DNA of 64,000 nucleotides from Rhodobacterales bacterium RIFCSPHIGHO2_02_FULL_62_130 (GCA_001828855.1 MHZT01000043.1:753-64752), one strand, 5' to 3'. Positions 29,155-62,049 are shown, numbered from the stretch's first letter. Numbers and translations are program-made. The notes: a model not told the origin generated them from the letters alone.

Positions 29155-29476
29155 CTAAATATGGGGCCTCGGTCAATGACCGCGCGGTCAGGAAGGCCGC
29201 TGCCAGTATCCGCCGCAGACCCGGACACTGCTGTCGATGTCCACGATCAAGCCGTTTCGCGGCTTCTTTATCGACACCACCCGGTGATGCCCGGGTTCCG
29301 GCAAACCGGCGGGACAGATTGTTCAAGTCCGGCTTTCGCAACTTGCTGCGAGCGCAATGCTGCGGGGTCACAGTCTCCTTCCCGCCCGGTGCCCCCACTC
29401 CTGGCCTGAAACGTGGTATCCTGTGGTGGTCGGCATGACCGAAGAAGGGTGGGCCGGGTGGACAGGAGGTATACTC

Positions 29477-30109
29477 ATGCCCGCCGAATTTCTCCCCGTC
29501 CTTCGGCCTGTCCGCGTCCCTTGGAACAAGGGCCGCATTATCGGTCAGAAGCGCCCGCTCCTGCCGCGGCATGTCTGGTCCATCCGGGTCCGCTTGGAGA
29601 TGGCAGGCAACCCGCGCGACCTTGCGCTGTTCAACATGGCCGTCGACAGCAAGCTTCGTGGATGCGACCTCGTCGCCCTCCGGGTCCGGGATGTGTTCGC
29701 CGCCGGGCGGGTCAAGGAGCGCGCCTCGATGATCCAGAGCAAGACGGGCAAGCCGGTCCGCTTCGAGATCACCGAAACGACACGGCTATCCCTCGAGCGA
29801 TGGATCCAGGACCCGGAGATGACCGGCCTCGAATTCCTGTGGCCTAGCCGGATCCATGGCAGCCCGCATCTGTCCACGCGTCAGTATGCGCGGATCGTCC
29901 GGGGCTGGGTGAAGTCGCTGGGCCTCGAACCAAGCGCCTACGGCACCCATTCCATGCGACGGACTAAGGTCGCACAGATCTACAAGAAGACCGGCAACTT
30001 GCGCGCGGTCCAACTGCTACTGGGGCACACGAAGATGGACAGCACCGTGCGTTACCTCGGCGTCGACATCGAGGATGCCCTGACGCTGTCAGAGGGCATC
30101 GATCTGTGA
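29477..30109 (+). CDS. Tyrosine-type site-specific recombinase/integrase (short form)
   Basis: The catalytic-domain pattern ...GTHSMRRTKVAQIYKKTGNLRAVQLLLGHTKMDSTVRYLG contains R, HxxR and Y. ATG 29477 is preceded by GGAGG. Confidence 0.85.
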   Translation: MPAEFLPVLRPVRVPWNKGRIIGQKRPLLPRHVWSIRVRLEMAGNPRDLALFNMAVDSKLRGCDLVALRVRDVFAAGRVKERASMIQSKTGKPVRFEITETTRLSLERWIQDPEMTGLEFLWPSRIHGSPHLSTRQYARIVRGWVKSLGLEPSAYGTHSMRRTKVAQIYKKTGNLRAVQLLLGHTKMDSTVRYLGVDIEDALTLSEGIDL

Positions 30110-50332: not shown

Positions 50333-50386
50333 AAATGGGTGTAATTGGGTTCCGAATTGGGTTGCAGGAAATGGGTGTTATTGGGT
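50333..50386 (+). repeat. 18-bp direct repeat AAATGGGTGTWATTGGGT x2 just upstream of the Fic gene (candidate operator)
   Basis: The copies at 50333-50350 and 50369-50386 match at 17 of 18 positions. Extra ATTGGGT/ATTGGAT copies lie between and after them. The patch is AT-rich. Confidence 0.5.
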
Positions 50387-50398
50387 ATAAAATTGGAT

Positions 50399-51448
50399 AT
50401 GATCCAAACTCAGACGCTCCGCATCACCCCGACCTTTCTCTCGATCATCGCCGAGATCGACGAGTTCAAAGGCGCATGGCGCGCACTCGGAAGCCTCGCC
50501 CCCGAGCGTCTGTCCGCCTTACGCCGCGTCGCCACCATCGAGAGCATCGGCTCTTCGACACGCATCGAGGGAAGCCGGCTCTCCGATAAGGAGGTTCAGC
50601 GTCTGCTCTCCAATCTCGACATCCAGACCTTCTCGACCCGGGACGAAGAGGAGGTCGCTGGCTACGCTCAGGTCATGGACACAGTCTTCGCCTCGTGGCG
50701 CGACATCGATGTGACCGAGAACCATATCCGCCAGTTACACCGGGACCTCCTGCGGCACAGCAGCAAAGACCAGCGACATAGGGGGGCCTGGAAGACCGCG
50801 CCAAACTCGATCGCAGCTTTCGACGAGGCAGGGCGGCAACTTGGCGTGGTGTTTGAGACCGCCAGCCCCTTTGACACGCCGGGCCGCATGGCTGAACTGA
50901 TCGACTGGTACAACGCCGCCACCCAGGACCATGATCTGCATCCGCTGCTACTGATCGGAATCTTCGTCGTGGTATTTCTCGAAATCCATCCGTTCCAGGA
51001 CGGCAACGGTCGTCTCAGCCGGATCCTGACCACCTTGCTGCTTTTGCGCTCAGGCTATGCCTATGTCCCGTACTCATCCCTCGAAAGCGTGATCGAGCAA
51101 AGCAAAGAGGCCTATTACCTGGCACTTCGGCAGACCCAGGGGACGATCAGGTCCGACACTCCGGACTGGGGTCCCTGGCTCGGCTTCTTCCTGTCTGCAC
51201 TACAGCGCCAGATGCTTCGATTGCGCGCGAAAGTTGAGCGTGAACGGCTGTTGATGGGCAGCCTGCCGGAAGTTTCCGCGCAGCTTCTCGACCTCGTGCG
51301 CGATCATGGTCGCCTGACAATCGGCGACGCCGAGCGCCTGACCGGCCAGAATCGCAACACGCTGAAACAGCACTTCCGCACACTTGTCGCGGATGGCCAC
51401 CTGAGCCTGAACGGGGCCGGGAGGGGGGCCTGGTATTCACTCCGATAA
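50399..51448 (+). CDS. Fic-family protein with N-terminal inhibitory motif and C-terminal winged helix
   Basis: It has the Fic motif HPFQDGNGRLSR, an inhibitory-helix-type motif STRIEG ([ST]xxxE[GN]), and a C-terminal wHTH-like tail. Confidence 0.85.
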   Translation: MIQTQTLRITPTFLSIIAEIDEFKGAWRALGSLAPERLSALRRVATIESIGSSTRIEGSRLSDKEVQRLLSNLDIQTFSTRDEEEVAGYAQVMDTVFASWRDIDVTENHIRQLHRDLLRHSSKDQRHRGAWKTAPNSIAAFDEAGRQLGVVFETASPFDTPGRMAELIDWYNAATQDHDLHPLLLIGIFVVVFLEIHPFQDGNGRLSRILTTLLLLRSGYAYVPYSSLESVIEQSKEAYYLALRQTQGTIRSDTPDWGPWLGFFLSALQRQMLRLRAKVERERLLMGSLPEVSAQLLDLVRDHGRLTIGDAERLTGQNRNTLKQHFRTLVADGHLSLNGAGRGAWYSLR

Positions 51449-51589: not shown

Positions 51590-52147
51590 TCAGTCCTGGA
51601 CAGGCGAGCGCCTGATGGACATAGTCCATGCAACGTTAGTGGACTCTTCTAGAAAAAGGATTGCGTCAAACGAAGCTAGTTGCGCCCCGCGTTCGCTTGC
51701 ATAGGTCCGCTTGGAGAACCGCTTGTATCCAGTGCTTGGCCTTTGAATAAGACCATGCCATCTACCGTCACGCTCGAAGATGGTGACGTGAAAACCACGT
51801 TCACTGATAACCAAATTGCCCTGTCGCGACCGGCGCCATGCCTTGCGGTCAGGCCAACCAGCACGCCGCCGGGCCGCATTCTTCATCAACGCTTCGCGCC
51901 GCCGAGCGCGTTCGACATCCTGTTCCATATGGCCGGCGCATATGCAGCCGCAGTGCAGAATTTCGGGAAAGTCCGGGTGCTGCATGGCATGGACATATCG
52001 AATGTCCTGCCGCTCGCACATCTCGCAAACGGCCGCAGGGGCGCCAAGGTCTTCGACACCGACACAGGTCCAGCCTTTGTGGGGAACGCCATGCATTGAC
52101 CATTTGCCAAAGCCGCCGACGCCAGGAGCCTCGTCAAGTTCGGTCAT
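51590..52147 (-). CDS. Hypothetical Cys/His-rich protein, third gene of the XRE-ImmA operon
   Basis: The length is 185 aa. It contains CEMCERQDIRYVHAMQHPDFPEILHCGCICAGH (putative Zn site). The C-terminal half (GFHVTIFERDGRWHGLIQ...) could be a small DNA-binding fold. Its start overlaps the ImmA stop (ATGA). Confidence 0.55.
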   Translation of the reverse strand: MTELDEAPGVGGFGKWSMHGVPHKGWTCVGVEDLGAPAAVCEMCERQDIRYVHAMQHPDFPEILHCGCICAGHMEQDVERARRREALMKNAARRRAGWPDRKAWRRSRQGNLVISERGFHVTIFERDGRWHGLIQRPSTGYKRFSKRTYASERGAQLASFDAILFLEESTNVAWTMSIRRSPVQD

Positions 52148-53043
52148 CGACGAAAGCGTGGCGTCCAGCGCGCCTCCATGCCTTCGTCGGACTCTTCAAA
52201 TTCGTCGGCATCCTCGTAGGTGTCGTCGACGATCTGCGCACAGGAAAGAACGGTCAACACGCGGTCGTAGCGGCCGAGATCGACGACTTGTTCGACCGTG
52301 CGCACGGTGCGATCCCCACCGAACCAGTCGAGAATATCGGTCTCGATTTCTTCGCGGCGGCCTTGCCGTTCGGCGGCTGGCCGTGCGGCGACCGATGCGG
52401 TGAGCGTGCCCGTCGGCAGAGCTGCGCCCTTGCGGAGCCAGTTCTGGCCCTTCAGCTGCTTCAAGGCCTCGGATTTGAAGCAGTAGTCAACCCGGCCCTG
52501 ACGGCTGACGACGATGGCGGCGGCATCGTCGGTCTCGTTAATGTACCGGATGGCAGATGCCGTGAGCGAGGCTTTTGCCTCGCTGCGGATTGCCTCCACA
52601 CTCGGCAACCCTTCTCGCGCCCGTCTCAAGATCGGGCGAATTAGCGAGGTCGGCATCAGAAGGCCTGCCGAAAAATAGTCTGCCTCCCGTTCGTAGGGTT
52701 CCTCCGAGACGAACCCGGCCCTTGAACGATGCACTCCGCGGTCGAAGGGGATATGGTCGAGATGCCCATCGACAAAATAGTGCCCGAATTCATGGCCGAT
52801 GCTGAACCGCTCGAAGCCCTCGTTGTCGGTGTGGGTGGCGTACATGATGCCGAACTGATCGCCGTAGCGCATCAGCATGCCCGAGACACCCTCGGCCCTG
52901 CGGTCCATTTCACGCAGATGGATGCCGACAGCCTGAGCCAAAGCGTCCAGATCGACCGGAAGCGTCAACAGTCCGTGTTCCTGGAGCACGAGTTCGGCTC
53001 GGCGCATAAGCTGCTTTTGTTTCAGATCGGGGTTGCCGGTCAT
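52144..53043 (-). CDS. ImmA/IrrE-family zinc metallopeptidase (CapP-like)
   Basis: It has the HExxH motif in SIGHEFGHYFVDGH. The length is 299 aa. Its start overlaps the XRE stop (ATGA). Confidence 0.8.
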   Translation of the reverse strand: MTGNPDLKQKQLMRRAELVLQEHGLLTLPVDLDALAQAVGIHLREMDRRAEGVSGMLMRYGDQFGIMYATHTDNEGFERFSIGHEFGHYFVDGHLDHIPFDRGVHRSRAGFVSEEPYEREADYFSAGLLMPTSLIRPILRRAREGLPSVEAIRSEAKASLTASAIRYINETDDAAAIVVSRQGRVDYCFKSEALKQLKGQNWLRKGAALPTGTLTASVAARPAAERQGRREEIETDILDWFGGDRTVRTVEQVVDLGRYDRVLTVLSCAQIVDDTYEDADEFEESDEGMEARWTPRFRR

Positions 53044-53402
53044 TTCTTCCCGGCTTCCCTGTCATGCTTCTCGGCTAGGAAGCGCATGAAGTCGGCGGCC
53101 TGCCGTCGATTCTCGTCGTTGAGCTTCTGCATGTCGCGGTAAAGCGGATCGGCCTCGGCCGCGCCCTCGGGATTGTCTGTGCGCCCAAGCAGGAAATCTG
53201 TGGTCACGGAGAGTGCGTTGGCCAGTTTGCGGAGGCTATCGAATGACGGCTTGCGGGTACCGGCCTCGAAATGTGCGATGGAGCTGGGCGGCAGGCCGCT
53301 GTCCTTGGCGAGGGCGGCTTGGCTCATCTGGCGCAGGCTCTCTCGCGCAGCGCGCAGTCGTTCCCTGAAGATATCCGATGGCTTCTCGTGTTCAATGGTC
53401 AT
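53040..53402 (-). CDS. XRE-family HTH repressor (CapH/ImmR-like)
   Basis: ATG 53402 starts the gene. The HTH is LRQMSQAALAKDSGLPPSSIAHFEAGTRKPSFDSLRKLANAL. The length is 120 aa. Confidence 0.8.
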   Translation of the reverse strand: MTIEHEKPSDIFRERLRAARESLRQMSQAALAKDSGLPPSSIAHFEAGTRKPSFDSLRKLANALSVTTDFLLGRTDNPEGAAEADPLYRDMQKLNDENRRQAADFMRFLAEKHDREAGKK

Positions 53403-53423
53403 GGCGTTTTCGACATGTTGATA

Positions 53424-53473
53424 TTGACGTCTTGCGAACGTCCCCCTATATTCCCGACATACATGGCATGTCG
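53424..53473 (+). promoter_or_regulatory. Sigma70-like promoter TTGACG-17-TATATT with downstream operator palindrome CGACAT-N7-ATGTCG
   Basis: The -35 is at 53424-53429, the -10 at 53447-53452 and the palindrome at 53455-53473. A third CGACATG copy lies at 53411-53417. AGGAGG at 53513-53518 precedes ATG 53524. Confidence 0.6.
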
Positions 53474-53523
53474 AGGCCGCCAATGGCAAGGGCCTCACTG
53501 CCTAACAGGCATAGGAGGCCAAT

Positions 53524-54018
53524 ATGGCAGCAGAGCAGAACGGACACGACAACGGTACCTTCCACATTAGCGTGGGCGATGCCGAGCTGAATTTCCGGCC
53601 GGTACAGATCGACGATCCGGTTCCGACCGGCCGGCAGATCCTCGAAGCCGCCGGCGTGCGCATCCCCGAGGAACATCTGGTGTTCCAGCTCCTGCGGGAC
53701 GGCGAGCTCGAAGAGCTGCGCCAGGACGAGACGACCGATCTGCGCGGCGGTCGGGCTGAGCGCTTCCTGATCTTTCCGGGGGCCGAGTCCTTTCGGATCG
53801 AACTGGACGGCCAGGTGCTGGAATGGGGTGCCTGCGCGATCAGCGGGCGGGTGTTGAAGACGATCGCAAAGGTCGATCCGAAGACCTACGGCGTCTGGCT
53901 TGAAGTGCGCGGCGCCGAGGATCGGCCGATCGGCGACACCGAGCTGGTGCGGCTCGATGGCAAGGGGCTGGAACGCTTCTTCACGGGCATCAGCCAGACT
54001 ACGGAGGGTGGGGCATGA
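53524..54018 (+). CDS. Tandem beta-grasp (multiubiquitin-type) ubiquitin-like protein ending ...TTEGG-A
   Basis: The length is 164 aa, with two repeats of a roughly 70-aa Ub-like pattern. The C-terminus has a di-glycine followed by a single Ala. Confidence 0.75.
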   Translation: MAAEQNGHDNGTFHISVGDAELNFRPVQIDDPVPTGRQILEAAGVRIPEEHLVFQLLRDGELEELRQDETTDLRGGRAERFLIFPGAESFRIELDGQVLEWGACAISGRVLKTIAKVDPKTYGVWLEVRGAEDRPIGDTELVRLDGKGLERFFTGISQTTEGGA

Positions 54019-54395
54019 GCTTCCTCCCGACAGCCGACCGGCGCTATCTTGAGGAGCGGGGGCTGGCCTTCCGGGAAGTGGACGATGGCGGCCGGAAGGG
54101 CGTCATCCTTCCCGGCTTCGCCCTGCCGGCGGCGAAATTTCAGGTTGTCGAAGCCGATATCCTGATCCTCCTTCCGTGCGGCTATCCCGACACGGCGCCA
54201 GACATGTTCTACGCGCTGCCCTGGCTGAGCCTCGTGCGATCCAGCCGCTATCCCAACTGCGCGGATCAGCCCCAGCAGTTTGAGAGTCAAAATTGGCAGC
54301 GCTGGTCCCGACATAATAATAACTGGCGGCCGGGCATCGACGGCATCTGGACCATGCTCAAGCGGGTCGAACAGGCGCTGCAGGAGGCCGCGTGA
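54015..54395 (+). CDS. Prokaryotic E2/UBC-like protein
   Basis: The length is 126 aa. LLPCGYPDTAPDMFY...RYPNC resembles the UBC YPxxPP ... HPN...C layout. Its start overlaps the Ubl stop (ATGA). Confidence 0.7.
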   Translation: MSFLPTADRRYLEERGLAFREVDDGGRKGVILPGFALPAAKFQVVEADILILLPCGYPDTAPDMFYALPWLSLVRSSRYPNCADQPQQFESQNWQRWSRHNNNWRPGIDGIWTMLKRVEQALQEAA

Positions 54396-55792
54396 TGCAG
54401 ATTGATGTGACTCTGCAGGCGCGTCATGCAACGGCGCTGCGCGAATTGCTCCAGCGTCCGGACGGGATCGAGGCCGCGGCCTATGTCATGTTTGGGCGCA
54501 ACGTCGTCGGGATTGACCCGTGGTCCCGTCGCCGGCGGCTTCGGCTGGTTTCTCATCAAGTCGTTCCGGTGCCGGCGGGCGACGAGATTTCGGCGAGCCC
54601 CCGCCATGTTACCTGGTCGACTGCAACCTTCGTCAGTCTGTGTCGGCAGGCGGCCTACCGGGGTCTAGTGCCAGCGATCGTGCACAGCCATCCTGCCGGC
54701 ATGCGGGCCTTTTCGCGGCAGGACGACGTCAACGAGCGCGATCTCTACCGGTTGCTGCGCAACCGTAACGGTACTGACGCGATTATGGCGAGCGTGTTGC
54801 TCGCCGGCGACGATCATTTCATGGCGCGTGCCTGGTTCGATGACAAGGAACCGGTCGCGGCCGAAATCGTTCGGAGCATCGGCTCCCGGCTGCTCCATTT
54901 CGGCGGCGAGTCCGGCGCCTCGAACGCGGCACTGGTGCGGCAAGCACTGTTGTTCGGCGAAGCGGTTAACAACCGTCTAGCATCGATGCGGGTAGGCATC
55001 GTCGGCTGCGGAGGCACAGGCAGCGCCACGGCGATGCTGTTGGCCCGGCTCGGCGTCGGTCAGCTCGCCTTGTTTGACGACGATATCGTCGAAATTTCCA
55101 ATCTGAATCGCCTCCATGGCGCGCGCCGGGCGGATGCCGACGCCATGCGGCCAAAGGTCGAGGTGCTCGCGCGCGAGATCACGGAATTGGGCCTCGGCGT
55201 GCGTGTCCACACCCATCGCGGCTGGATCGAGAATGAAGCCGCGCGGGATGCGCTCAAGGCCTGCGACGTGATCTTCGGCTGCACGGATGACCATGCAGGC
55301 CGGCTGTTTCTCAATCGCTTTTCGCATTTCTATCTGATCCCGGTCATCGACATGGGACTTGCCATCGAGCCGGCGTCGGCTGACATGCGGGACATGTCGG
55401 CGCGGGTCACTGTGCTTACGCCGGGCGCACCCTGCCTCTCCTGCCGGGGCGTTGTCGACCCCAAAGCCGCGAGCGAGGAGGCGCTGCGTCGGGCAGCGCC
55501 GGAAGAATACGAGCGACAGAAGCGCGAGGCCTATGTCCGCGGCGGTCAGAATCCGGCGCCGGCCGTGGTGACCTTTACGACCGAAACTGCGACGCTCGCC
55601 GTCAATGAGCTGCTGCAGGGCCTGACCGACTATCGCGGGGAAGGGGGCTGGGCCTGGGAGCGTGTTCGGCGGCTGGACCGCGGCATCGAGCGGAAGCGCG
55701 GCGCTATCCGGTCACCGCACTGTCCGATTTGCGCGCGCGAGGACTATTGGGGCCGGGGCGACATGGACCCCTTCATGGATCGGATCGGCTGA
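54392..55792 (+). CDS. JAB/JAMM peptidase - ThiF/E1 adenylyltransferase fusion
   Basis: The JAMM motif is an exact HxHx7Sx2D match (HSHPAGMRAFSRQD). The E1 Rossmann motif is GIVGCGGTGS, followed by NLNR. Zn-site pairs CLSC and CPIC are present. The start is GTG 54392 or ATG 54395 and overlaps the E2 stop. Confidence 0.85.
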   Translation: MMQIDVTLQARHATALRELLQRPDGIEAAAYVMFGRNVVGIDPWSRRRRLRLVSHQVVPVPAGDEISASPRHVTWSTATFVSLCRQAAYRGLVPAIVHSHPAGMRAFSRQDDVNERDLYRLLRNRNGTDAIMASVLLAGDDHFMARAWFDDKEPVAAEIVRSIGSRLLHFGGESGASNAALVRQALLFGEAVNNRLASMRVGIVGCGGTGSATAMLLARLGVGQLALFDDDIVEISNLNRLHGARRADADAMRPKVEVLAREITELGLGVRVHTHRGWIENEAARDALKACDVIFGCTDDHAGRLFLNRFSHFYLIPVIDMGLAIEPASADMRDMSARVTVLTPGAPCLSCRGVVDPKAASEEALRRAAPEEYERQKREAYVRGGQNPAPAVVTFTTETATLAVNELLQGLTDYRGEGGWAWERVRRLDRGIERKRGAIRSPHCPICAREDYWGRGDMDPFMDRIG

Positions 55793-56190
55793 TGCGCATC
55801 TTTAGCCACCTTTGCCGCTGGACTGCCGAGCGGTGCCGGTTGATCGGTCGCACCGATCTGGTCGCGCGGGTCAGCCCCCGGCATCCATCACCGGACCAGC
55901 TCCAGACGGGGTCACTGGTCGTCGTGCGTGATGGCACCCTCGATAAATGGGCCTGTTTCCGCTGTCCGGGAGGGTGCGGCGAGAAGATTCAGCTCTCCCT
56001 GAACCAGGCGCGGCGACCCCGTTGGGCGGTGCGTTTCGACTGGCTGCTGCGGCCGACCATCGAACCCTCAGTGCGCCAGCTCAATGCCTGCCGCTGCCAC
56101 TTCTGGGTCAAGCGGGGCCAAGTCCATTGGTGTCACGATAGCGGTCACCGTCAGGTGCCGAAACGGACCAACGGCGCGTGGGGACGTTGA
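55792..56190 (+). CDS. Cys-rich DUF6527-like protein (putative zinc-binding partner of the Ubl system)
   Basis: ATG 55792 shares one nucleotide with the E1 stop (TGATG). The sequence reads CFRCPGGCGEKIQLSL...PTIEPSV...CRCHFWVKRGQVHWC. Confidence 0.65.
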   Translation: MRIFSHLCRWTAERCRLIGRTDLVARVSPRHPSPDQLQTGSLVVVRDGTLDKWACFRCPGGCGEKIQLSLNQARRPRWAVRFDWLLRPTIEPSVRQLNACRCHFWVKRGQVHWCHDSGHRQVPKRTNGAWGR

Positions 56191-57086
56191 TAGACCCCGA
56201 GAGTGAGCGCCTGGTAGCTGTTGCTGAAACTCTCGAAGCGGAAGACGTGGGCATCGCCATTGTCGTCGGTGAGCACAATTTCGGCTTCGCCGAGCGGACC
56301 GGCCCGACGTGGCTGGCAATAGCCGGAGACGAGCTCGAAAACCTCGACTTCGTCGACCCCGCTGAAGCCGGCGGCAAAGGCCGGCGAGCGCACCAAATGT
56401 TCGCAGGGAGTGGCCGCATCGAAATCGGCCGATCGACGCACCGGGTGCGGATGGTCGGAAATCATGCCGACAATCGGTACAGACGCGCCCCAAGTCTCAA
56501 TAGAGCGCCAAAATGTCGTGGTGTAGGTGTTGCCAAAGACCGGCTTGAGCGCGCGCACGGCTTCGATGGAGGGTGCGTGGTCGCGGGCTTCGACGGTGAA
56601 GCGGTCCCGGAGGAAAAGCAGTCGACTGGCCGCGAAATTGGCTTCGGCCTCAACTTGGTCATGGCAGTTCTGGTTCAGGGTGAAGCGATCGTCGCCGAGC
56701 ATAGCCCCTTCATGCCAGGGGATGATACTGTGGCCGATCTCGTGCGCCTCGTGCCAGCGGTGCTTCAGTTCGGGTTGCGACTGATCGAGCAGAATACGCT
56801 TGTTGTCAGGTAGATAGAGTGCCCGCAAATCGAATTTGGCGACAGCCTCGAAGAAGAGCATAGGACGCCGGATGATCTGCTTGCTCGCCATGCGCATGCG
56901 GCTGATAACCTCATCAGCAAGCGAGGGATCGTCTTTCCGGAAATAGGTCAGATCGAGCGACAGCAGATCGCGGACGACCCGGAGGTCGAGCGGTGGTTCG
57001 GGATTCCCGAGACGCGCCAAGACGCGCTCGACGCGTTCGTCGATTTCCTGCTGTGTTTTGCGTCTCAGGATGTAGTTCCGAGCCAT
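56151..57086 (-). CDS. ImmA/IrrE-like zinc metallopeptidase (second copy)
   Basis: The HExxH motif lies in WHEAHEIGHSIIPWHEG. ATG 57086 is preferred with GGGGAA upstream; the 57092 codon is TTG. Its 3' end overlaps the DUF6527-like gene by 40 bp convergently. Confidence 0.7.
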   Translation of the reverse strand: MARNYILRRKTQQEIDERVERVLARLGNPEPPLDLRVVRDLLSLDLTYFRKDDPSLADEVISRMRMASKQIIRRPMLFFEAVAKFDLRALYLPDNKRILLDQSQPELKHRWHEAHEIGHSIIPWHEGAMLGDDRFTLNQNCHDQVEAEANFAASRLLFLRDRFTVEARDHAPSIEAVRALKPVFGNTYTTTFWRSIETWGASVPIVGMISDHPHPVRRSADFDAATPCEHLVRSPAFAAGFSGVDEVEVFELVSGYCQPRRAGPLGEAEIVLTDDNGDAHVFRFESFSNSYQALTLGVYQRPHAPLVRFGT

Positions 57087-57115
57087 CGTCAATTCCCCAG
57101 GCCGCCGGCCGCCCG

Positions 57116-57610
57116 TTACTTCGCCTTGTCGCGCAGAACGGAAACGAGGCCGTCAAAGGCGGCCTGCTCCTCGGCTGTCAGGGCTGTGATGGCCGTAGAC
57201 CGTGCCGCATAACGGACAGCTTCCTCCATGGCATGTGTGTCCTTCGGCGAAGCCAGCCCCGCCAGCTCCATCAGTCGAGCCTGCGATACATCGAAGACCT
57301 CGGACAGCCGCCAGATCGTGCGCAGCTCCGGCTCGTGACCGCCGTCCTGCTCGATGCTCATCAGCTCGCCGACCTCGATATGGGCGTCATCGGCGAGCTT
57401 TTCGATCGACCAGCCACGCTGGCGACGCGCCATGTTGACAAAGCGGGCGAAGGCCAGACGGGTTTCTTCGCCGCGGAGCCAAAAGGTTTCGTCCGGCACA
57501 TGGGGACGGGCGGAAAGGGGGCCTGCGCCGGGCGTCGACGTCTCATCGAGCGCCGCCCTGGCGAGGGCCCAGTCAGCAGTCGTGCTGTAGGTCATTGCGC
57601 TTCTCCTCAT
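57116..57610 (-). CDS. XRE-family HTH protein (second copy)
   Basis: The HTH region is FVNMARRQRGWSIEKLADDAHIEVGELMSIEQDG. Its start overlaps the GNAT stop (ATGA). Confidence 0.7.
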   Translation of the reverse strand: MRRSAMTYSTTADWALARAALDETSTPGAGPLSARPHVPDETFWLRGEETRLAFARFVNMARRQRGWSIEKLADDAHIEVGELMSIEQDGGHEPELRTIWRLSEVFDVSQARLMELAGLASPKDTHAMEEAVRYAARSTAITALTAEEQAAFDGLVSVLRDKAK

Positions 57611-58230
57611 AAGAACGTCCTGGCTCGCTCCGTCGTGATCTCGAAATAGGGTAGCAGCCCACGATATTCATTCGGATTGGTGCCAAGATTGATGAAGCCG
57701 CAGCGCTCGTAGAAGGTGACCGCCTGCGGCAAGGAATGAAGGCCGACACGACCGTGGAAGCCTTCGTCGAAGCTCCTCTGGATTGCGGTTCGGATTAGCA
57801 CCTGACCAATGCCGCGATAAAGCGGTGGATCGGCATAGGGTTCGTTCCAGTTCCAGGGAGCGATTTCGAGGTAGTCGACATAAACCAGCGGCTTGCCCAT
57901 CTGATCGTCGAGGCGCGCCATGCGGCTCGCCAGATCGAGCCGCATCATGCCCTGGGTCACATCCCGGCATACGACGCTGTAACCCGTGTGGCCGAGCAGT
58001 CCGCGCACTTCGTCGATCTTTGCGCGCCAGTCCCAATGCCAGCTCTGCGGCCAGTCGAGACCCTGCCGGGTTACCCCATTGTCGGCAAGCCGCCGGAGAT
58101 AGCCCTCCAGGGTTCTTCGCCACTGGAATTGCCAATCCAACAGCTGTCGTTCGCCGATCGTATCGAGCAATTCAGCCTCAACTGGCTGCCGTGAGGACAC
58201 ATCAATGATAAAGACGGAATACGATGTCAT
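57607..58230 (-). CDS. GNAT-family N-acetyltransferase
   Basis: ATG 58230 overlaps the RHH stop. The region VYVDYLEIAPWN...YRGIGQVLIRTAIQRSFDEGFHGRVGLHSLPQAVTFYERCGF is acetyl-CoA binding-like. The length is 207 aa. Confidence 0.7.
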   Translation of the reverse strand: MTSYSVFIIDVSSRQPVEAELLDTIGERQLLDWQFQWRRTLEGYLRRLADNGVTRQGLDWPQSWHWDWRAKIDEVRGLLGHTGYSVVCRDVTQGMMRLDLASRMARLDDQMGKPLVYVDYLEIAPWNWNEPYADPPLYRGIGQVLIRTAIQRSFDEGFHGRVGLHSLPQAVTFYERCGFINLGTNPNEYRGLLPYFEITTERARTFL

Positions 58231-58436
58231 AGCATCATGATCTCCGACTTCTCTCTGGTCTGGTCGTCCTCGAAGTATAGCTTGCCGCCACGCTCCACCC
58301 GGGTGTCGATCATCTGGTAAAGTCGCAGCGCCTGCCGCATCAGGCCGGTCTTGCTGAGATCCTTCTTGGCGCACAAGGCCTCTAGGGCGCTCATCTCAGC
58401 CTCCGTGAGGTTGAGCGTCATGGTCTTCTTGCTCAT
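58227..58436 (-). CDS. Ribbon-helix-helix (CopG/Arc-like) protein
   Basis: ATG 58436 is preceded by GAGGA with 5-nt spacing. The sequence MSKKTMTLNLTEAEMSALEALCAKKDLSKTGLMRQALRLY fits a beta-strand, helix, helix pattern. The length is 69 aa. Confidence 0.65.
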   Translation of the reverse strand: MSKKTMTLNLTEAEMSALEALCAKKDLSKTGLMRQALRLYQMIDTRVERGGKLYFEDDQTREKSEIMML

Positions 58437-58460
58437 GTCGATCCTCATTGAACGCATGTT

Positions 58461-58513
58461 TTCTAGCTGTTTCGCATTCATCTGTCAAGTAAAGAATAGC
58501 TAAAACATAGCTA
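58461..58513 (-). promoter_or_regulatory. Promoter TTGACA-17-TAGAAA with ATAGCTA tandem repeats (candidate RHH operator)
   Basis: On the minus strand the -35 is at 58488-58483 and the -10 at 58465-58460. ATAGCTA occurs at 58496-58502 and 58507-58513 (11-bp period). TAGCT at 58464-58468 overlaps the -10. Confidence 0.5.
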
Positions 58514-60115: not shown

Positions 60116-60817
60116 ATGGCAGACTTCGATTGGAAACATCTTCTGAAACGCGGCCTGATCCTCGCGTTGGAGGATCGGACGCGGGCGGAAACGTTGAAGG
60201 CTTCCCTGCTGGTGCGCGACCATGCTGGGCTGGACAAGAAGCGCGCGCGCGAACTCGAAGGCCAGGCGCGTTTTCGGATGGTGGAGCAAGGCTTCGAAGA
60301 GGTCTGCGTCCTTTTCGGCGGTCAGCCGCTTGTTGGTGGTGTCATCCCGAACAGCAGCCTGAAGATCTTCCAGCCGTTCATGCGGTTCGGCGGTGATGGC
60401 CCGGGTGTCATCTTTGGCCTCGCCGCGATGCCCGAACGCAGCAAGTTGCCGAACAAGAACCGTTCCCGTCTGGCCGGTGTGACGCTGAACTTCAATCTGA
60501 CCCCAAGTTTTGACTTCGACGGCAGCGGCCCGAAGCCCGGGGATATCTTCGTCCTCTTCTTGGTTGCACGTGACCGCGAACAGTCTGGCAAACTGGATGA
60601 GATTGCGATTGGCGTGATTGATGCGATCTACGAGCAGTTTCTGTTTTACGAACGCCTTGACAAGTTCCTTGCTGATGATGCCGATGCCGCTGAACCGGTC
60701 CCCGCTTCGATTGTGTCGCCGTCCGAGACCGGGCTGGTGCGCTTGAAGGCGAAGGTGAAACCGTTTGTCCCCCCCGAGTCGCCGCCGGAGGTGGACGACG
60801 AAACAGGGAAGGCATGA
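60116..60817 (+). CDS. Hypothetical protein (no recognisable family)
   Basis: The length is 233 aa. It is a clean ORF in a lower-GC block, 32 nt upstream of the HTH-ImmA fusion gene. The C-terminal tail is acidic and Pro-rich. Confidence 0.5.
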   Translation: MADFDWKHLLKRGLILALEDRTRAETLKASLLVRDHAGLDKKRARELEGQARFRMVEQGFEEVCVLFGGQPLVGGVIPNSSLKIFQPFMRFGGDGPGVIFGLAAMPERSKLPNKNRSRLAGVTLNFNLTPSFDFDGSGPKPGDIFVLFLVARDREQSGKLDEIAIGVIDAIYEQFLFYERLDKFLADDADAAEPVPASIVSPSETGLVRLKAKVKPFVPPESPPEVDDETGKA

Positions 60818-60849
60818 TCGGTTTCTTGCGATACCGGCGGGAGGATTGA

Positions 60850-62049
60850 ATGCGCGTAGGAACGCCTGGCTTCGTGCCAGAACGCCTAGCGGAAGTGCGG
60901 GCTGCTCGGCGAATTTTGAGCATGAAGGAGCTTGCACAAATGATTGGGGTTTCACCCAGTGCAGTGTCACGCTGGGAAAGCGGCACCCATGCTCCCGATG
61001 CAGAGGCGCTCACCGCCCTGGCGCGTGAACTTCGTGTGCGTAGGGAGTATTTTCTGCGACCTGTCCATACCAGTGAACACCCGATGTTTTCTCGCTCGCT
61101 CTCCAGTGCCCTGAAGCGCGACACGTCGTACCAGGACGGCCAGATGCAGTGGCTGCAGGAGATCTCTGCGGTCTTGCAGCATTATGTGGATTTTCCGGCG
61201 GTCGACATTCCTGATGTCATGAAGGGTCTAGCCTATCGCCAACTGCGTGATGAAGACATCGAGGGCATCGCACAGGAATTGCGATCCCATTGGCGGCTTG
61301 GCCAAGGTCCGATCATCGACATGGTGGCGTTGCTTGAACGAGTCGGCTGTGTGGTTGGCTCCATCGAGATGGGAACGTCGAAGCTGGACGGGCTATGCAG
61401 CTGGTCACTGGGTGACGAACGCCCGCATATCATGCTCGCGACTGACAAGATGTCCCTGCCTCGTCGTCAAATGGACGCCGCACACGAACTTGGTCATGCG
61501 ATCCTGCACAAGGGGGTTAGGCACGAAGAGCTGAAGTCCGATCTCAAAGAGATCGAACGTCAGGCTTTCCGTTTTGCCAGTGCATTCCTAATGCCCGAGA
61601 CGACCTTCGTGCATGAAGTGCAGCATTATTCTTTGGCAGGGCTCCTGTCCGTAAAAGAGCGGTGGCGGGTTTCAGTGAAGGCGCAAATCAGGCGGCTTCT
61701 GGACCTCGAAGTCATCCCGGAGCACTACGGCACGCAGCTCTACAAGAGCTATTCAGCGAACGGCTGGAACAAGGTGGAGCCGCTGGATCGCGAGTGGCCA
61801 GTTCCCGAGCCGGCGGTCTTGCGCAACGCGCTTAGCCTGATCGTCGAATCCGGAACTCGGACCAAGGAAGATTTGCTTGCCGTCGAGTTCACAATGCATC
61901 CAGGCGACATCGAGAACCTGACCGGGCTTCCACCAGGGTGGTTCAACCGGCAAGAAGCTAGCGTTGTCCAACTATCGTTGAAGCAGGATGCCGCGAAGCC
62001 GCATAGTGACGCTCCTGCAGGAGAAGTCGTACCGTTCGCCCGGCGCTGA
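60850..62049 (+). CDS. XRE HTH - ImmA/IrrE metallopeptidase fusion protein
   Basis: The N-terminal HTH is MKELAQMIGVSPSAVSRWESGTHAP. The HExxH motif lies in AAHELGHAILH. GGGAGG lies upstream of ATG 60850. The length is 399 aa. Confidence 0.8.
   Translation: MRVGTPGFVPERLAEVRAARRILSMKELAQMIGVSPSAVSRWESGTHAPDAEALTALARELRVRREYFLRPVHTSEHPMFSRSLSSALKRDTSYQDGQMQWLQEISAVLQHYVDFPAVDIPDVMKGLAYRQLRDEDIEGIAQELRSHWRLGQGPIIDMVALLERVGCVVGSIEMGTSKLDGLCSWSLGDERPHIMLATDKMSLPRRQMDAAHELGHAILHKGVRHEELKSDLKEIERQAFRFASAFLMPETTFVHEVQHYSLAGLLSVKERWRVSVKAQIRRLLDLEVIPEHYGTQLYKSYSANGWNKVEPLDREWPVPEPAVLRNALSLIVESGTRTKEDLLAVEFTMHPGDIENLTGLPPGWFNRQEASVVQLSLKQDAAKPHSDAPAGEVVPFARR

What the first reader, a model, noticed from the sequence alone, without database searches (positions are those of the whole stretch)
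53524..56190. Compact four-gene ubiquitin-like conjugation operon (tandem-Ubl / E2 / JAB-E1 fusion / Cys-rich DUF6527-like) on a mobile island
Seen in the sequence: four genes are packed with overlapping stops and starts (ATGA at 54015, GTGATG at 54392, TGATG at 55790). A strong AGGAGG precedes the first gene. Gene 1 is a 164-aa protein with two ubiquitin-like beta-grasp repeats. It ends ...TTEGG-A, a di-glycine capped by one residue, which is the form expected of a precursor needing C-terminal processing. Gene 2 has a UBC-like YPxxAP ... YPN-C layout. Gene 3 fuses a JAMM peptidase with an intact HxHx7Sx2D motif to a ThiF/E1 domain (GCGGTGS, two CxxC pairs). Gene 4 is a small CxxCxxxC...CxC...C protein. 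From established knowledge: multiubiquitin + E2 + JAB + E1 neighbourhoods were predicted computationally in bacteria. Related Ubl pathways (CBASS Cap2/Cap3, Bil, Bub) have been tied to antiphage immunity. As far as I know, this particular architecture with a DUF6527-like partner has no assigned target, effector or phenotype. Inference: the element encodes everything needed to process, activate and conjugate a Ubl. The Zn-ribbon-like fourth protein could be an E3-like adaptor, a substrate or an effector.
Basis: partly seen in the sequence, partly recalled or inferred. Interest (0 to 1): 0.85.

Follow-up and report, generated by a model that had tools for sequence, protein, structure and literature searches.

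The report
Type I Bub ubiquitin-like conjugation operon
The four genes are real and form a ubiquitin-like protein-tagging system, but it belongs to the already described bacterial "Bub" family, whose chemistry is known and whose biological role is still unknown, so this locus is an ordinary new member.

Summary
Four translationally coupled genes at 53524-56190 match Pfam Multi_ubiq (two repeats), Prok-E2_E, Prok-JAB+ThiF and DUF6527, with E-values from 1e-8 to 1e-49. This is a Type I Bub operon (formerly "6E/DUF6527"; Ye, Gong, Chambers & Corbett, bioRxiv 2024.11.21.623953). The best solved-structure matches are Citrobacter BubCD and BubB.

That paper's Table S1 already lists this architecture: separate Ubl, separate E2, JAB-E1 fusion and DUF6527, often with CapH+CapP. 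CapH and CapP sit divergently upstream here.

- The E2 Cys in YPNC is not conserved. The invariant WSRH serine is the active residue, so the chemistry is oxyester.
- The conserved Ubl end is TTEG. The tail is therefore probably "GA", not "A" after a di-glycine.
- DUF6527 (BubE) is a Ser/His protease that removes the Ubl, not an E3 or effector.

The target and phenotype remain unknown in the literature up to 2026. The locus lies in a defence-cargo slot of a Paracoccaceae mobilizable-plasmid backbone, next to SoFic and Rosmer. Verdict: new member of a known kind, low to moderate interest.

The parts
52144..53043 (-). capP: ssDNA-activated M78 (ImmA/IrrE) metallopeptidase, second gene of the divergent regulator pair
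   Evidence: PADLOC capP 2.5e-61, covering 3-240 of the 242-position model. Pfam Peptidase_M78 9.8e-11. The HEFGH motif is present in the translation. Its start overlaps the capH stop at 53040-53043.
53040..53402 (-). capH: XRE-type HTH repressor, 120 aa from the ATG at 53402. The longer 152-aa ORF from the GTG at 53498 is probably not used.
   Evidence: PADLOC capH 2e-26, covering 3-102 of 103. Pfam HTH_3 6e-14. The orthologue in L004 and the annotated Jiella gene are 120 aa.
53403..53523 (.). Divergent control region. It holds a -35 box TTGACG (53424-53429), a -10 box TATATT (53447-53452), the palindrome CGACAT-N7-ATGTCG (53455-53473) as candidate CapH operator, a second CGACATG box (53411-53417), and the RBS AGGAGG (53513-53518).
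   Evidence: The promoter scan gives 10 of 12 matches. Inverted repeats were found. The boxes and palindrome are conserved in 11 CapH/CapP-linked relatives down to about 45% CapP protein identity. Function as an operator is inferred, not shown.
53524..54018 (+). bubA: Ubl precursor, 164 aa, two beta-grasp (Multi_ubiq) domains. The conserved terminus is T159-T160-E161-G162, followed by a G163-A164 tail.
   Evidence: Pfam Multi_ubiq 2.5e-35, 2 stretches. PDB matches 9d5b, 8u38 and 9cd2 (bacterial Ubl3 proteins) at 5e-28 to 1e-25, over residues 5-155. The TTEG terminus is conserved in 80 loci.
54015..54395 (+). bubB: stand-alone E2, family E, 126 aa. The proposed active site is S98 with H100 and D63. 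There is no conserved Cys.
   Evidence: Pfam Prok-E2_E 2.1e-49. PDB Citrobacter BubB (9eae) 1.2e-11, with an identical QRWSRH motif. D63, W97, S98, R99 and H100 are invariant in the 24 aligned homologues, and C82 is variable.
54392..55792 (+). bubCD: JAB/JAMM peptidase (about residues 1-170) fused to a ThiF-type E1 (about 180-465). Key residues are JAMM E26/H97/H99/S107/D110, the ATP loop G204-S210, R239, D298, crossover-loop Y380, and a Zn site at C347/C350/C443/C446.
   Evidence: Pfam ThiF 8.1e-41 and Prok-JAB 5.6e-8. PDB Citrobacter BubCD (9ea4) 1.1e-38 over residues 14-411. The listed residues are conserved in at least 97% of 73 orthologues, most of them in all 73.
55792..56190 (+). bubE: DUF6527 Ser/His peptidase with a Cys cluster, 132 aa. 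The dyad is S93/H103. The Cys residues are at 55, 58, 62, 100, 102 and 114.
   Evidence: Pfam DUF6527 3.3e-25, covering 1-63 of 63. S93 and H103 are invariant in 70 of 70 orthologues, with the same 10-residue spacing as Citrobacter S92/H102. No solved structure exists.

Best explanation
This is a Type I Bub (bacterial ubiquitination-like, formerly 6E.1/DUF6527) operon of the split BubA|BubB subtype. It is controlled by a divergent CapH+CapP pair and carried in the defence-cargo slot of a Paracoccaceae mobilizable or conjugative plasmid backbone.

Proposed course of events:
1. CapH binds the CGACAT-N7-ATGTCG palindrome just downstream of the -10 box and keeps the operon off. DNA damage or phage infection produces ssDNA, which activates CapP. 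CapP cleaves CapH and the operon is expressed. This step is inferred by homology.
2. BubA is made with a two-residue tail. The JAB domain of BubCD trims it after G162 (TTEG|GA). This is inferred from family conservation and from the Citrobacter cleavage site.
3. The E1 domain adenylates G162 and forms a BubA~Y380 oxyester.
4. BubA passes to S98 of BubB as a second oxyester, assisted by H100 and D63. It then passes to lysines of targets that are still unknown.
5. BubE (S93/H103, Zn-bound) cleaves BubA-target conjugates and so acts as the negative regulator.

Steps 2 to 5 were shown biochemically for the Citrobacter homologue only. Here they rest on conservation of every catalytic residue.

The biological output is unknown. 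Antiphage or anti-plasmid defence, or a DNA-damage stress response, is suggested only by the regulators and the neighbouring genes.
For: - Family assignments come from Pfam.
- The best solved-structure matches are Citrobacter BubCD (1e-38) and BubB (1e-11), and bacterial Ubl3 proteins (5e-28).
- The literature equates 6E/DUF6527 with Bub and describes the oxyester mechanism through E1 Tyr and E2 Ser, and BubE as a Ser/His protease.
- Table S1 lists 139 Type I operons. 33 of them lack the 'Ub+E2 fusion' comment, and many have CapP and CapH.
- All catalytic residues are conserved: E2 D63/S98/H100; JAMM E26/H97/H99/S107/D110, R239 and Y380 in 72-73 of 73; BubE S93/H103 in 70 of 70.
- The four-gene order recurs in nearly all of the 80 loci kept from 243 matching stretches in a scan of one genome per species. 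72 are split and 8 are fused.
- CapH and CapP give full-length PADLOC matches. The CapH/CapP mechanism is described.
- The promoter and palindrome are conserved.
- The same slot in related plasmids holds type I R-M plus Shedu, or SIR2 plus a restriction enzyme. SoFic and Rosmer flank the locus.
Against: - Nothing here is experimental for this locus.
- The BubCD match to the characterised Citrobacter protein is remote (136 bits, E = 1e-38, over residues 14-411), so kinetics and specificity may differ.
- The main text of the Bub paper defines Type I by a BubAB fusion, which this locus lacks. The paper's own table nevertheless files split operons as Type I.
- The cleavage site (after G162 or after G163) is inferred, not measured.
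- This clade's E1 keeps four conserved Cys residues, and Citrobacter lacks the first pair at the aligned position. I read them as a structural Zn site as in MoeB, ThiF and Uba5, but a catalytic role is not formally excluded.
- No Bub operon has yet protected against any phage, so the defence role is only contextual.
Confidence: 0.87

Rival explanations
1. This is a canonical cysteine-thioester Ubl cascade. The E2 would use the Cys of YPNC, and the E1 would use one of its Cys residues.
For: C82 exists in the window's E2. The E1 has four conserved Cys residues, C347, C350, C443 and C446.
Against: C82 is not conserved: it is A, R, K, L, S or T in 24 aligned homologues. The aligned Citrobacter position has no Cys. 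The four E1 cysteines form the two CxxC pairs typical of the structural Zn site. There is no Cys between residues 351 and 442, which is the stretch containing Y380, the residue aligned with the Citrobacter crossover-loop Tyr. Published mutagenesis assigns catalysis to Tyr and Ser.
Confidence: 0.03
2. BubE (DUF6527) acts as an E3-like transferase, an adaptor or the effector, rather than or in addition to being a deconjugating protease.
For: The Bub paper itself says the Ser/His pair near the Ubl C-terminus could mean Ubl transfer or proteolysis. The in vitro protease activity was extremely weak, needing 48 h. No other E3 or effector is encoded in the operon.
Against: [quoted passage not shown] The dyad is invariant here.
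Confidence: 0.08
3. This is a sulfur-carrier or cofactor-biosynthesis system: a ThiS/MoaD-like beta-grasp protein, a ThiF-like adenylase and a JAB trimming enzyme, as in CysO/Mec+. It would not be a protein-conjugation system.
For: NCBIfam gives only generic ThiF and MoeB hits, all far below their cut-offs. JAB plus E1 plus beta-grasp sets do occur in sulfur transfer (own knowledge).
Against: A full-length E2 family E protein and DUF6527 are present. There is no rhodanese, cysteine desulfurase or biosynthetic neighbour. The closest solved relatives are Bub conjugation proteins. The locus is linked to CapH/CapP and to a defence island.
Confidence: 0.02
4. The locus is a decaying, non-functional remnant: a BubAB fusion broken by a frameshift.
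For: The main text of the Bub paper says Type I operons encode a BubAB fusion. The Jiella pelagia plasmid copy has bubA annotated as two fragments.
Against: 72 of 80 related loci are split. There are 511 homologue clusters, and nearly all of the 120 listed are 125-127 aa. All ORFs and catalytic residues are intact. Copies about 98% identical occur in three other assemblies.
Confidence: 0.02

Closest known systems
Type I Bub operon (6E.1/DUF6527), e.g. Citrobacter sp. RHBSTW-00271 BubAB-BubCD-BubE (Ye et al., bioRxiv 10.1101/2024.11.21.623953; PDB 9ea4, 9eae)
   Same: It has the same four domain families in the same order and the same JAB-E1 fusion. The E2 motif QRWSRH is identical. The E1 crossover Tyr, the JAMM site and the BubE Ser/His dyad are conserved, and the operon is linked to CapH+CapP.
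   Different: The Ubl and E2 are separate genes with an ATGA overlap, instead of a fusion. The Ubl has two rather than three beta-grasp domains. The E1 keeps a Cys4 Zn site, and Citrobacter lacks the first CxxC pair at the aligned position. Split-type operons are nevertheless already listed as Type I in the paper's Table S1.
Type II Bub (6E.2): BubA + BubBD (E2-E1 fusion) + BubE
   Same: It has a multi-ubiquitin Ubl and DUF6527, and uses oxyester chemistry. The Ubl of E. coli ZDHYS365 (9cd2) matches BubA at 1.3e-25.
   Different: Type II fuses E2 to E1, typically lacks JAB, and uses Ser+Lys+His in the E2. Here JAB is fused to the E1, and the E2 is free with Ser+His+Asp.
Bil (BilABCD) antiphage Ubl systems
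   Same: Both have a Ubl, E2, JAB and E1, and both are conjugation systems found in defence contexts.
   Different: Bil has a separate JAB, an E1 with an IAD-AAD-CYS architecture, catalytic cysteines, and no DUF6527. None of those features is present here.
Type II CBASS Cap2/Cap3
   Same: Both use an E1-type adenylation domain and a JAB peptidase. The PADLOC E1-E2 (Cap2) models hit only the ThiF core, residues about 190-310.
   Different: This locus has no CD-NTase, no E2-E1 fusion and no Ubl-less substrate. The PADLOC hits are partial.
CapH+CapP regulators (Lau et al., bioRxiv 10.1101/2022.04.27.489752)
   Same: Both proteins give full-length PADLOC matches. The pair is placed divergently upstream of the regulated operon, and a palindrome lies at the promoter.
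   Different: An extra conserved Cys-rich ORF (51590-52147) is translationally coupled downstream of capP in this clade. Its function is unknown.

Membership tests
Type I Bub (6E.1/DUF6527) operon | A Ubl with beta-grasp (multi-ubiquitin) domain(s) ending in a conserved Gly | tested here: met
   Multi_ubiq 2.5e-35, two stretches. The TTEG terminus is conserved across 80 loci.
Type I Bub (6E.1/DUF6527) operon | An E2 of family E lacking a catalytic Cys, with invariant Ser + His + Asp | tested here: met
   Prok-E2_E 2.1e-49. S98, H100 and D63 are invariant and C82 is variable. The QRWSRH motif is identical to Citrobacter BubB.
Type I Bub (6E.1/DUF6527) operon | A JAB/JAMM peptidase fused to the N-terminus of a homodimeric-type E1 that has a crossover-loop Tyr and no catalytic Cys | tested here: met
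   Prok-JAB plus ThiF in one ORF. The best PDB match is BubCD, 1e-38. JAMM residues, R239 and Y380 are invariant. There is no Cys between residues 351 and 442.
Type I Bub (6E.1/DUF6527) operon | A DUF6527 protein (BubE) with a Ser/His dyad and a Zn-binding Cys cluster | tested here: met
   DUF6527 3.3e-25. S93 and H103 are invariant in 70 of 70. C58 and C114 are conserved in 69 of 70, and C55, C62, C100 and C102 in 57 to 63 of 70.
Type I Bub (6E.1/DUF6527) operon | Ubl fused to E2 (BubAB), as stated in the paper's main text | tested here: not met
   The ORFs are separate with an ATGA overlap. The paper's Table S1 still classes split operons as Type I: 31 of the rows read carry separate Ubl and E2 gene IDs, and 33 of 139 rows lack the fusion comment. 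The fusion is therefore typical, not defining.
Type I Bub (6E.1/DUF6527) operon | ATP-dependent Ubl conjugation through oxyester intermediates, and BubE-dependent deconjugation | not testable with these tools
   This needs biochemistry. It has been shown only for the Citrobacter and E. coli ZDHYS365 systems.
CapH+CapP regulator pair | An HTH repressor plus an M78 metallopeptidase, adjacent and divergent from the regulated operon | tested here: met
   PADLOC capH 2e-26 (3-102 of 103) and capP 2.5e-61 (3-240 of 242). The 121-bp divergent intergenic region holds a promoter and a palindrome.
CapH+CapP regulator pair | ssDNA-stimulated cleavage of CapH by CapP, and derepression on DNA damage | not testable with these tools
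   This is known for E. coli MS115-1 CapH/CapP.
Bil (BilABCD) | A separate JAB, an E1 with IAD-AAD-CYS domains, an E2 with a catalytic Cys, and no DUF6527 | tested here: not met
   Here JAB is fused to a single-domain E1, no catalytic Cys is conserved, and DUF6527 is present.
Type II CBASS (Cap2/Cap3) | A CD-NTase plus a Cap2 E2-E1 fusion plus a Cap3 JAB | tested here: not met
   No CD-NTase is present in or beside the locus among the flanking ORFs scanned (41.5-64 kb). PADLOC E1-E2 models hit only the ThiF core.

The most novel reading that the evidence does not exclude
In the split-type Bub clade, the JAB domain may not be merely a precursor-trimming enzyme. 34 of 35 operons whose BubA already ends at the reactive TTEG keep a perfect JAMM site, so JAB may act as a second deconjugase or editing enzyme.

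The 6.5-kb module that moves between Paracoccaceae and Jiella plasmids (capP-capH-bubABCDE plus the convergent RHH-GNAT-HTH-M78 cassette) may also work as one unit. The GNAT/RHH pair would then supply the effector or a second damage-sensing input, which Bub operons otherwise appear to lack.
Probability: 0.12. Interest if true: 0.55.

Novelty: new member of a known kind. Interest (0 to 1): 0.25.

Why it matters
For the field, the locus adds little. Bub operons have been catalogued (544 operons), solved structurally and dissected biochemically.

Its modest value is contextual and comparative:
- It is an intact, CapH/CapP-controlled, split-type Bub on a plasmid. It sits in a slot where sister plasmids carry R-M, Shedu or SIR2 systems, and it lies beside SoFic and Rosmer. 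This strengthens the still unproven case that Bub is a defence or conflict system, and it offers a natural host and plasmid background in which to look for a phenotype.
- The survey of 80 loci shows that the reactive end is TTEG rather than GG.
- The same survey shows that fusion and fission of BubA and BubB occurred repeatedly.
- It also shows that JAB is retained where no trimming is needed. This bears on the published suggestion that JAB only processes BubAB.

Tried and rejected
- **PADLOC v2.0.0 on the four proteins.** Only partial Cap2-type E1 hits appeared. The 2023 release has no model that matched the Ubl, E2 or DUF6527 proteins, so this negative result says nothing.
- **NCBIfam.** It gave only generic ThiF and MoeB hits below their cut-offs.
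- **PDB sequence search with BubE.** Nothing was found, which agrees with the paper's statement that no structure exists.
- **Rfam at gathering thresholds and a tRNA scan over the whole window.** Both found nothing, so no tRNA integration site lies within the window.
- **The BubA|BubB split as a frameshift or sequencing artefact.** Rejected: 72 of 80 loci are split, and nearly all of the 120 listed E2 homologue clusters are 125-127 aa.
- **Programmed frameshifting at the ATGA junction.** I saw no slippery heptamer. Ordinary termination-reinitiation coupling is enough to explain the overlap.
- **Canonical Cys chemistry.** Rejected on conservation.
- **The RHH-GNAT-HTH-M78 cassette as a Bub-specific partner.** Rejected as specific. 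The same cassette sits divergently upstream of type III CBASS, of a CD-NTase+patatin CBASS and of other E1 operons.
- **Structure prediction and Foldseek.** Not run. Direct sequence matches to solved Bub structures already answer the membership question.
Full report
**Observation**

Four ORFs lie on the + strand exactly as described:
- 53524-54018, 164 aa.
- 54015-54395, 126 aa.
- 54392 or 54395 to 55792, 466 or 465 aa.
- 55792-56190, 132 aa.

The overlaps ATGA (54015), GTGATG (54392) and TGATG (55790) are real. AGGAGG lies at 53513-53518, 5 nt before the first ATG. Third-position GC of 0.76-0.80 against second-position GC of 0.43-0.49 marks these frames as coding.

Pfam gives Multi_ubiq (2.5e-35, two stretches), Prok-E2_E (2.1e-49, full length), Prok-JAB (5.6e-8) plus ThiF (8.1e-41), and DUF6527 (3.3e-25, full length). 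All are above the curated cut-offs.

**What it is**

The literature search on DUF6527 led directly to Ye, Gong, Chambers & Corbett (bioRxiv 10.1101/2024.11.21.623953). That paper renames the '6E/DUF6527' operons as Bub, for bacterial ubiquitination-like.
- Type II Bub has an E2-E1 fusion and no JAB.

The best solved-structure matches for the window's proteins are Citrobacter BubCD (9ea4, 1.1e-38, residues 14-411), Citrobacter BubB (9eae, 1.2e-11) and bacterial multi-ubiquitin Ubls (9d5b, 8u38, 9cd2; 5e-28 to 1e-25). BubE has no solved relative, as the paper also states.

The paper's main text says Type I operons encode a BubAB fusion. Its Table S1 is broader. It lists 139 Type I operons, of which 106 carry the 'Ub+E2 fusion' comment. 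In the part I read, 31 rows give separate Ubl and E2 gene IDs with 'DUB+E1 fusion', and many of those have CapP and CapH. Examples are Hyphomicrobium, Mesorhizobium, Bradyrhizobium, Bosea, Sphingopyxis and Rhizobium phaseoli. The exact architecture of this window is therefore already catalogued.

**Catalytic anatomy**

I aligned the window's proteins with homologues from two sources. The first was a protein search that returned 511 E2 clusters; nearly all of the 120 listed are 125-127 aa. The second was 80 genomic loci kept from 243 matching stretches in a scan of one genome per species.

- *E2.* The Cys of 'YPNC' (C82) is variable. D63 and the W97-S98-R99-H100 motif are invariant. The QRWSRH motif is identical in Citrobacter BubB, where S333 and H335 are catalytic and D299 is an invariant accompanying residue.
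- *E1.* The JAMM residues E26, H97, H99, S107 and D110, the adenylation residues (GCGGTGS loop, R239, D298) and Y380 are conserved in 72-73 of 73 orthologues. Y380 aligns with Citrobacter Y370, the oxyester-forming Tyr; the PDB chain numbering is offset by +2.
- *E1 cysteines.* The four conserved Cys residues (C347, C350, C443, C446) are the two CxxC pairs of a structural Zn site. No Cys lies between them.
- *BubE.* S93 and H103 are invariant in 70 of 70, with the same 10-residue spacing as Citrobacter S92/H102. A Cys cluster is conserved.

The locus thus carries every residue needed for the published oxyester mechanism, and no residue that would support a thioester mechanism.

**The Ubl C-terminus**

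The conserved end across the 80 loci is ...FFTG-x-x-x-TTEG.
- 72 loci are split and 8 are fused.
- 38 split loci stop exactly at the conserved TEG Gly (37 TTEG, 1 STEG), and bubB starts 2-6 nt later.
- Loci with an ATGA overlap carry 2-3 extra residues: GAA, GA, AA, VA or AG.
- Fused forms have a 0-3 residue linker, for example TEG-AE-APILP.

The window's '...TTEGGA' is therefore best read as TTEG plus a GA tail, a vestige of the fusion linker. The Citrobacter JAB domain cuts immediately after the conserved Gly, so the predicted mature end is G162. This is inference.

A by-product of this analysis concerns JAB. 34 of 35 operons whose BubA needs no trimming still have a perfect JAMM site. This argues against the paper's suggestion that JAB serves 'primarily or solely' to cleave BubAB.

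**Regulation**

Two genes lie divergently upstream.
- capH (53040-53402) matches PADLOC capH at 2e-26, full length.
- capP (52144-53043) matches PADLOC capP at 2.5e-61, full length.

The 121-bp intergenic region contains three elements:
- a promoter-like site, TTGACG-17-TATATT, at 53424-53452, matching 10 of 12 positions;
- the palindrome CGACAT-N7-ATGTCG at 53455-53473, directly after the -10 box;
- a further CGACATG box at 53411-53417.

These elements are conserved in 11 relatives linked to CapH/CapP.

CapH is a repressor that is cleaved by CapP once ssDNA has activated CapP. 31% of Bub operons carry this pair. Induction by DNA damage is therefore the likely control here. This is also inference.

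**Context**

The flanking genes are a T4SS coupling protein, ParA, bactofilin, Fic, SSB, H-NS, DUF2493/YAcAr and toprim.

The backbone matches mobilizable MOBP plasmids: Tabrizicola piscis at 92% and Neotabrizicola shimadae at 88%. In those plasmids the same slot, between the bactofilin/Fic side of the backbone and the DUF2493/toprim genes, carries other defence cargo. Neotabrizicola has type I R-M plus Shedu. T. piscis has SIR2 plus a restriction endonuclease.

In the window, the Fic protein scores as SoFic (2e-45), and 60116-62049 is a Rosmer system, with RmrT at 7e-100 and RmrA at 5e-209.

A 6.5-kb module (51982-58505) is 88% identical to part of a conjugative plasmid of Jiella pelagia (Hyphomicrobiales), where it sits beside an ISL3 transposase. 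Copies about 98% identical occur in Tabrizicola, Paracoccaceae and Erythrobacter MAGs.

More precisely, it is a defence-cargo slot of a plasmid backbone.

**Biological role**

The role is unknown. The Bub authors could not find phage protection.

**Verdict**

This is a correctly spotted, intact member of a known and recently characterised family. I rate it a new member of a known kind, with interest 0.25.

Noticed in passing
window 56151-58436 (- strand): A tight four-gene cassette: RHH (58227-58436), GNAT (57607-58230), XRE-HTH (57116-57610) and M78 peptidase (56151-57092). Here it lies convergent to bubE. In 12 other genome loci it lies divergently upstream of Bub, in the position CapH/CapP occupies here. 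A metagenome scan found at least 546 copies with the same gene order. They sit next to Bub, next to more distant Ubl/E1 operons, next to type III CBASS (SMODS+HORMA+AAA+SAVED) and next to a CD-NTase+patatin CBASS. It looks like a generic regulator cassette for immune operons, resembling CapH/CapP with an added RHH+GNAT pair. PADLOC and NCBIfam have no match for the GNAT or RHH proteins, and I found no paper in the held library linking CapH/CapP to a GNAT.
   Followed up: partly
window 50345-51448 (+): The Fic-domain protein scores as the SoFic defence protein (PADLOC 2e-45). A Fic gene sits at the same backbone position in the Neotabrizicola plasmid.
   Followed up: partly
window 60116-62049 (+): A complete Rosmer defence system: RmrT (60116-60817, PADLOC 7e-100) and RmrA (60850-62049, an HTH+M78 fusion, 5e-209).
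   Followed up: partly
window 51590-52147 (-): A 185-aa Cys-rich ORF (CxxC...C-x-C-x-C) whose start overlaps the capP stop (ATGA at 52144-52147). It is conserved downstream of capP in L001 and L002 (93-94%) and in Paracoccus loci L007 and L008 (76%). It has no Pfam, PADLOC or NCBIfam match. It may be a third gene of the regulator unit.
   Followed up: partly
80 genome loci L001-L080 (BubCD orthologues): 34 of 35 operons whose BubA ends exactly at the reactive TTEG, and so needs no trimming, keep an intact JAMM active site. This suggests a JAB role beyond precursor processing, contrary to the suggestion in the Bub paper.
   Followed up: partly
window 56151-56190: The 3' ends of bubE (+) and the M78 peptidase gene (-) overlap convergently by 40 nt. 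A similar overlap (31 nt) is seen in L001. No terminator-like site was found between them.
   Followed up: no
window 41000-64000 versus plasmids NZ_CP034329.1 and NZ_CP069371.1: The region between the bactofilin/Fic side of the backbone and the DUF2493/toprim genes behaves as a variable defence-cargo slot in a family of Paracoccaceae MOBP plasmids. It holds Bub plus Rosmer here, type I R-M plus Shedu plus RhuM in Neotabrizicola, and SIR2 plus a restriction endonuclease plus IS5 in Tabrizicola piscis.
   Followed up: partly
L081 (Jiella pelagia plasmid NZ_CP114028.1) 5536-6029: In the Jiella copy of the module, bubA is annotated as two overlapping multiubiquitin fragments, which probably reflects a frameshift. 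bubE is not in the plasmid gene table. This copy may be decaying, or the table may be incomplete.
   Followed up: no
window 29357-30109 (+): A phage-integrase-family (tyrosine recombinase) gene lies about 23 kb upstream, between metabolic and transport genes. There is no tRNA anywhere in the window.
   Followed up: no
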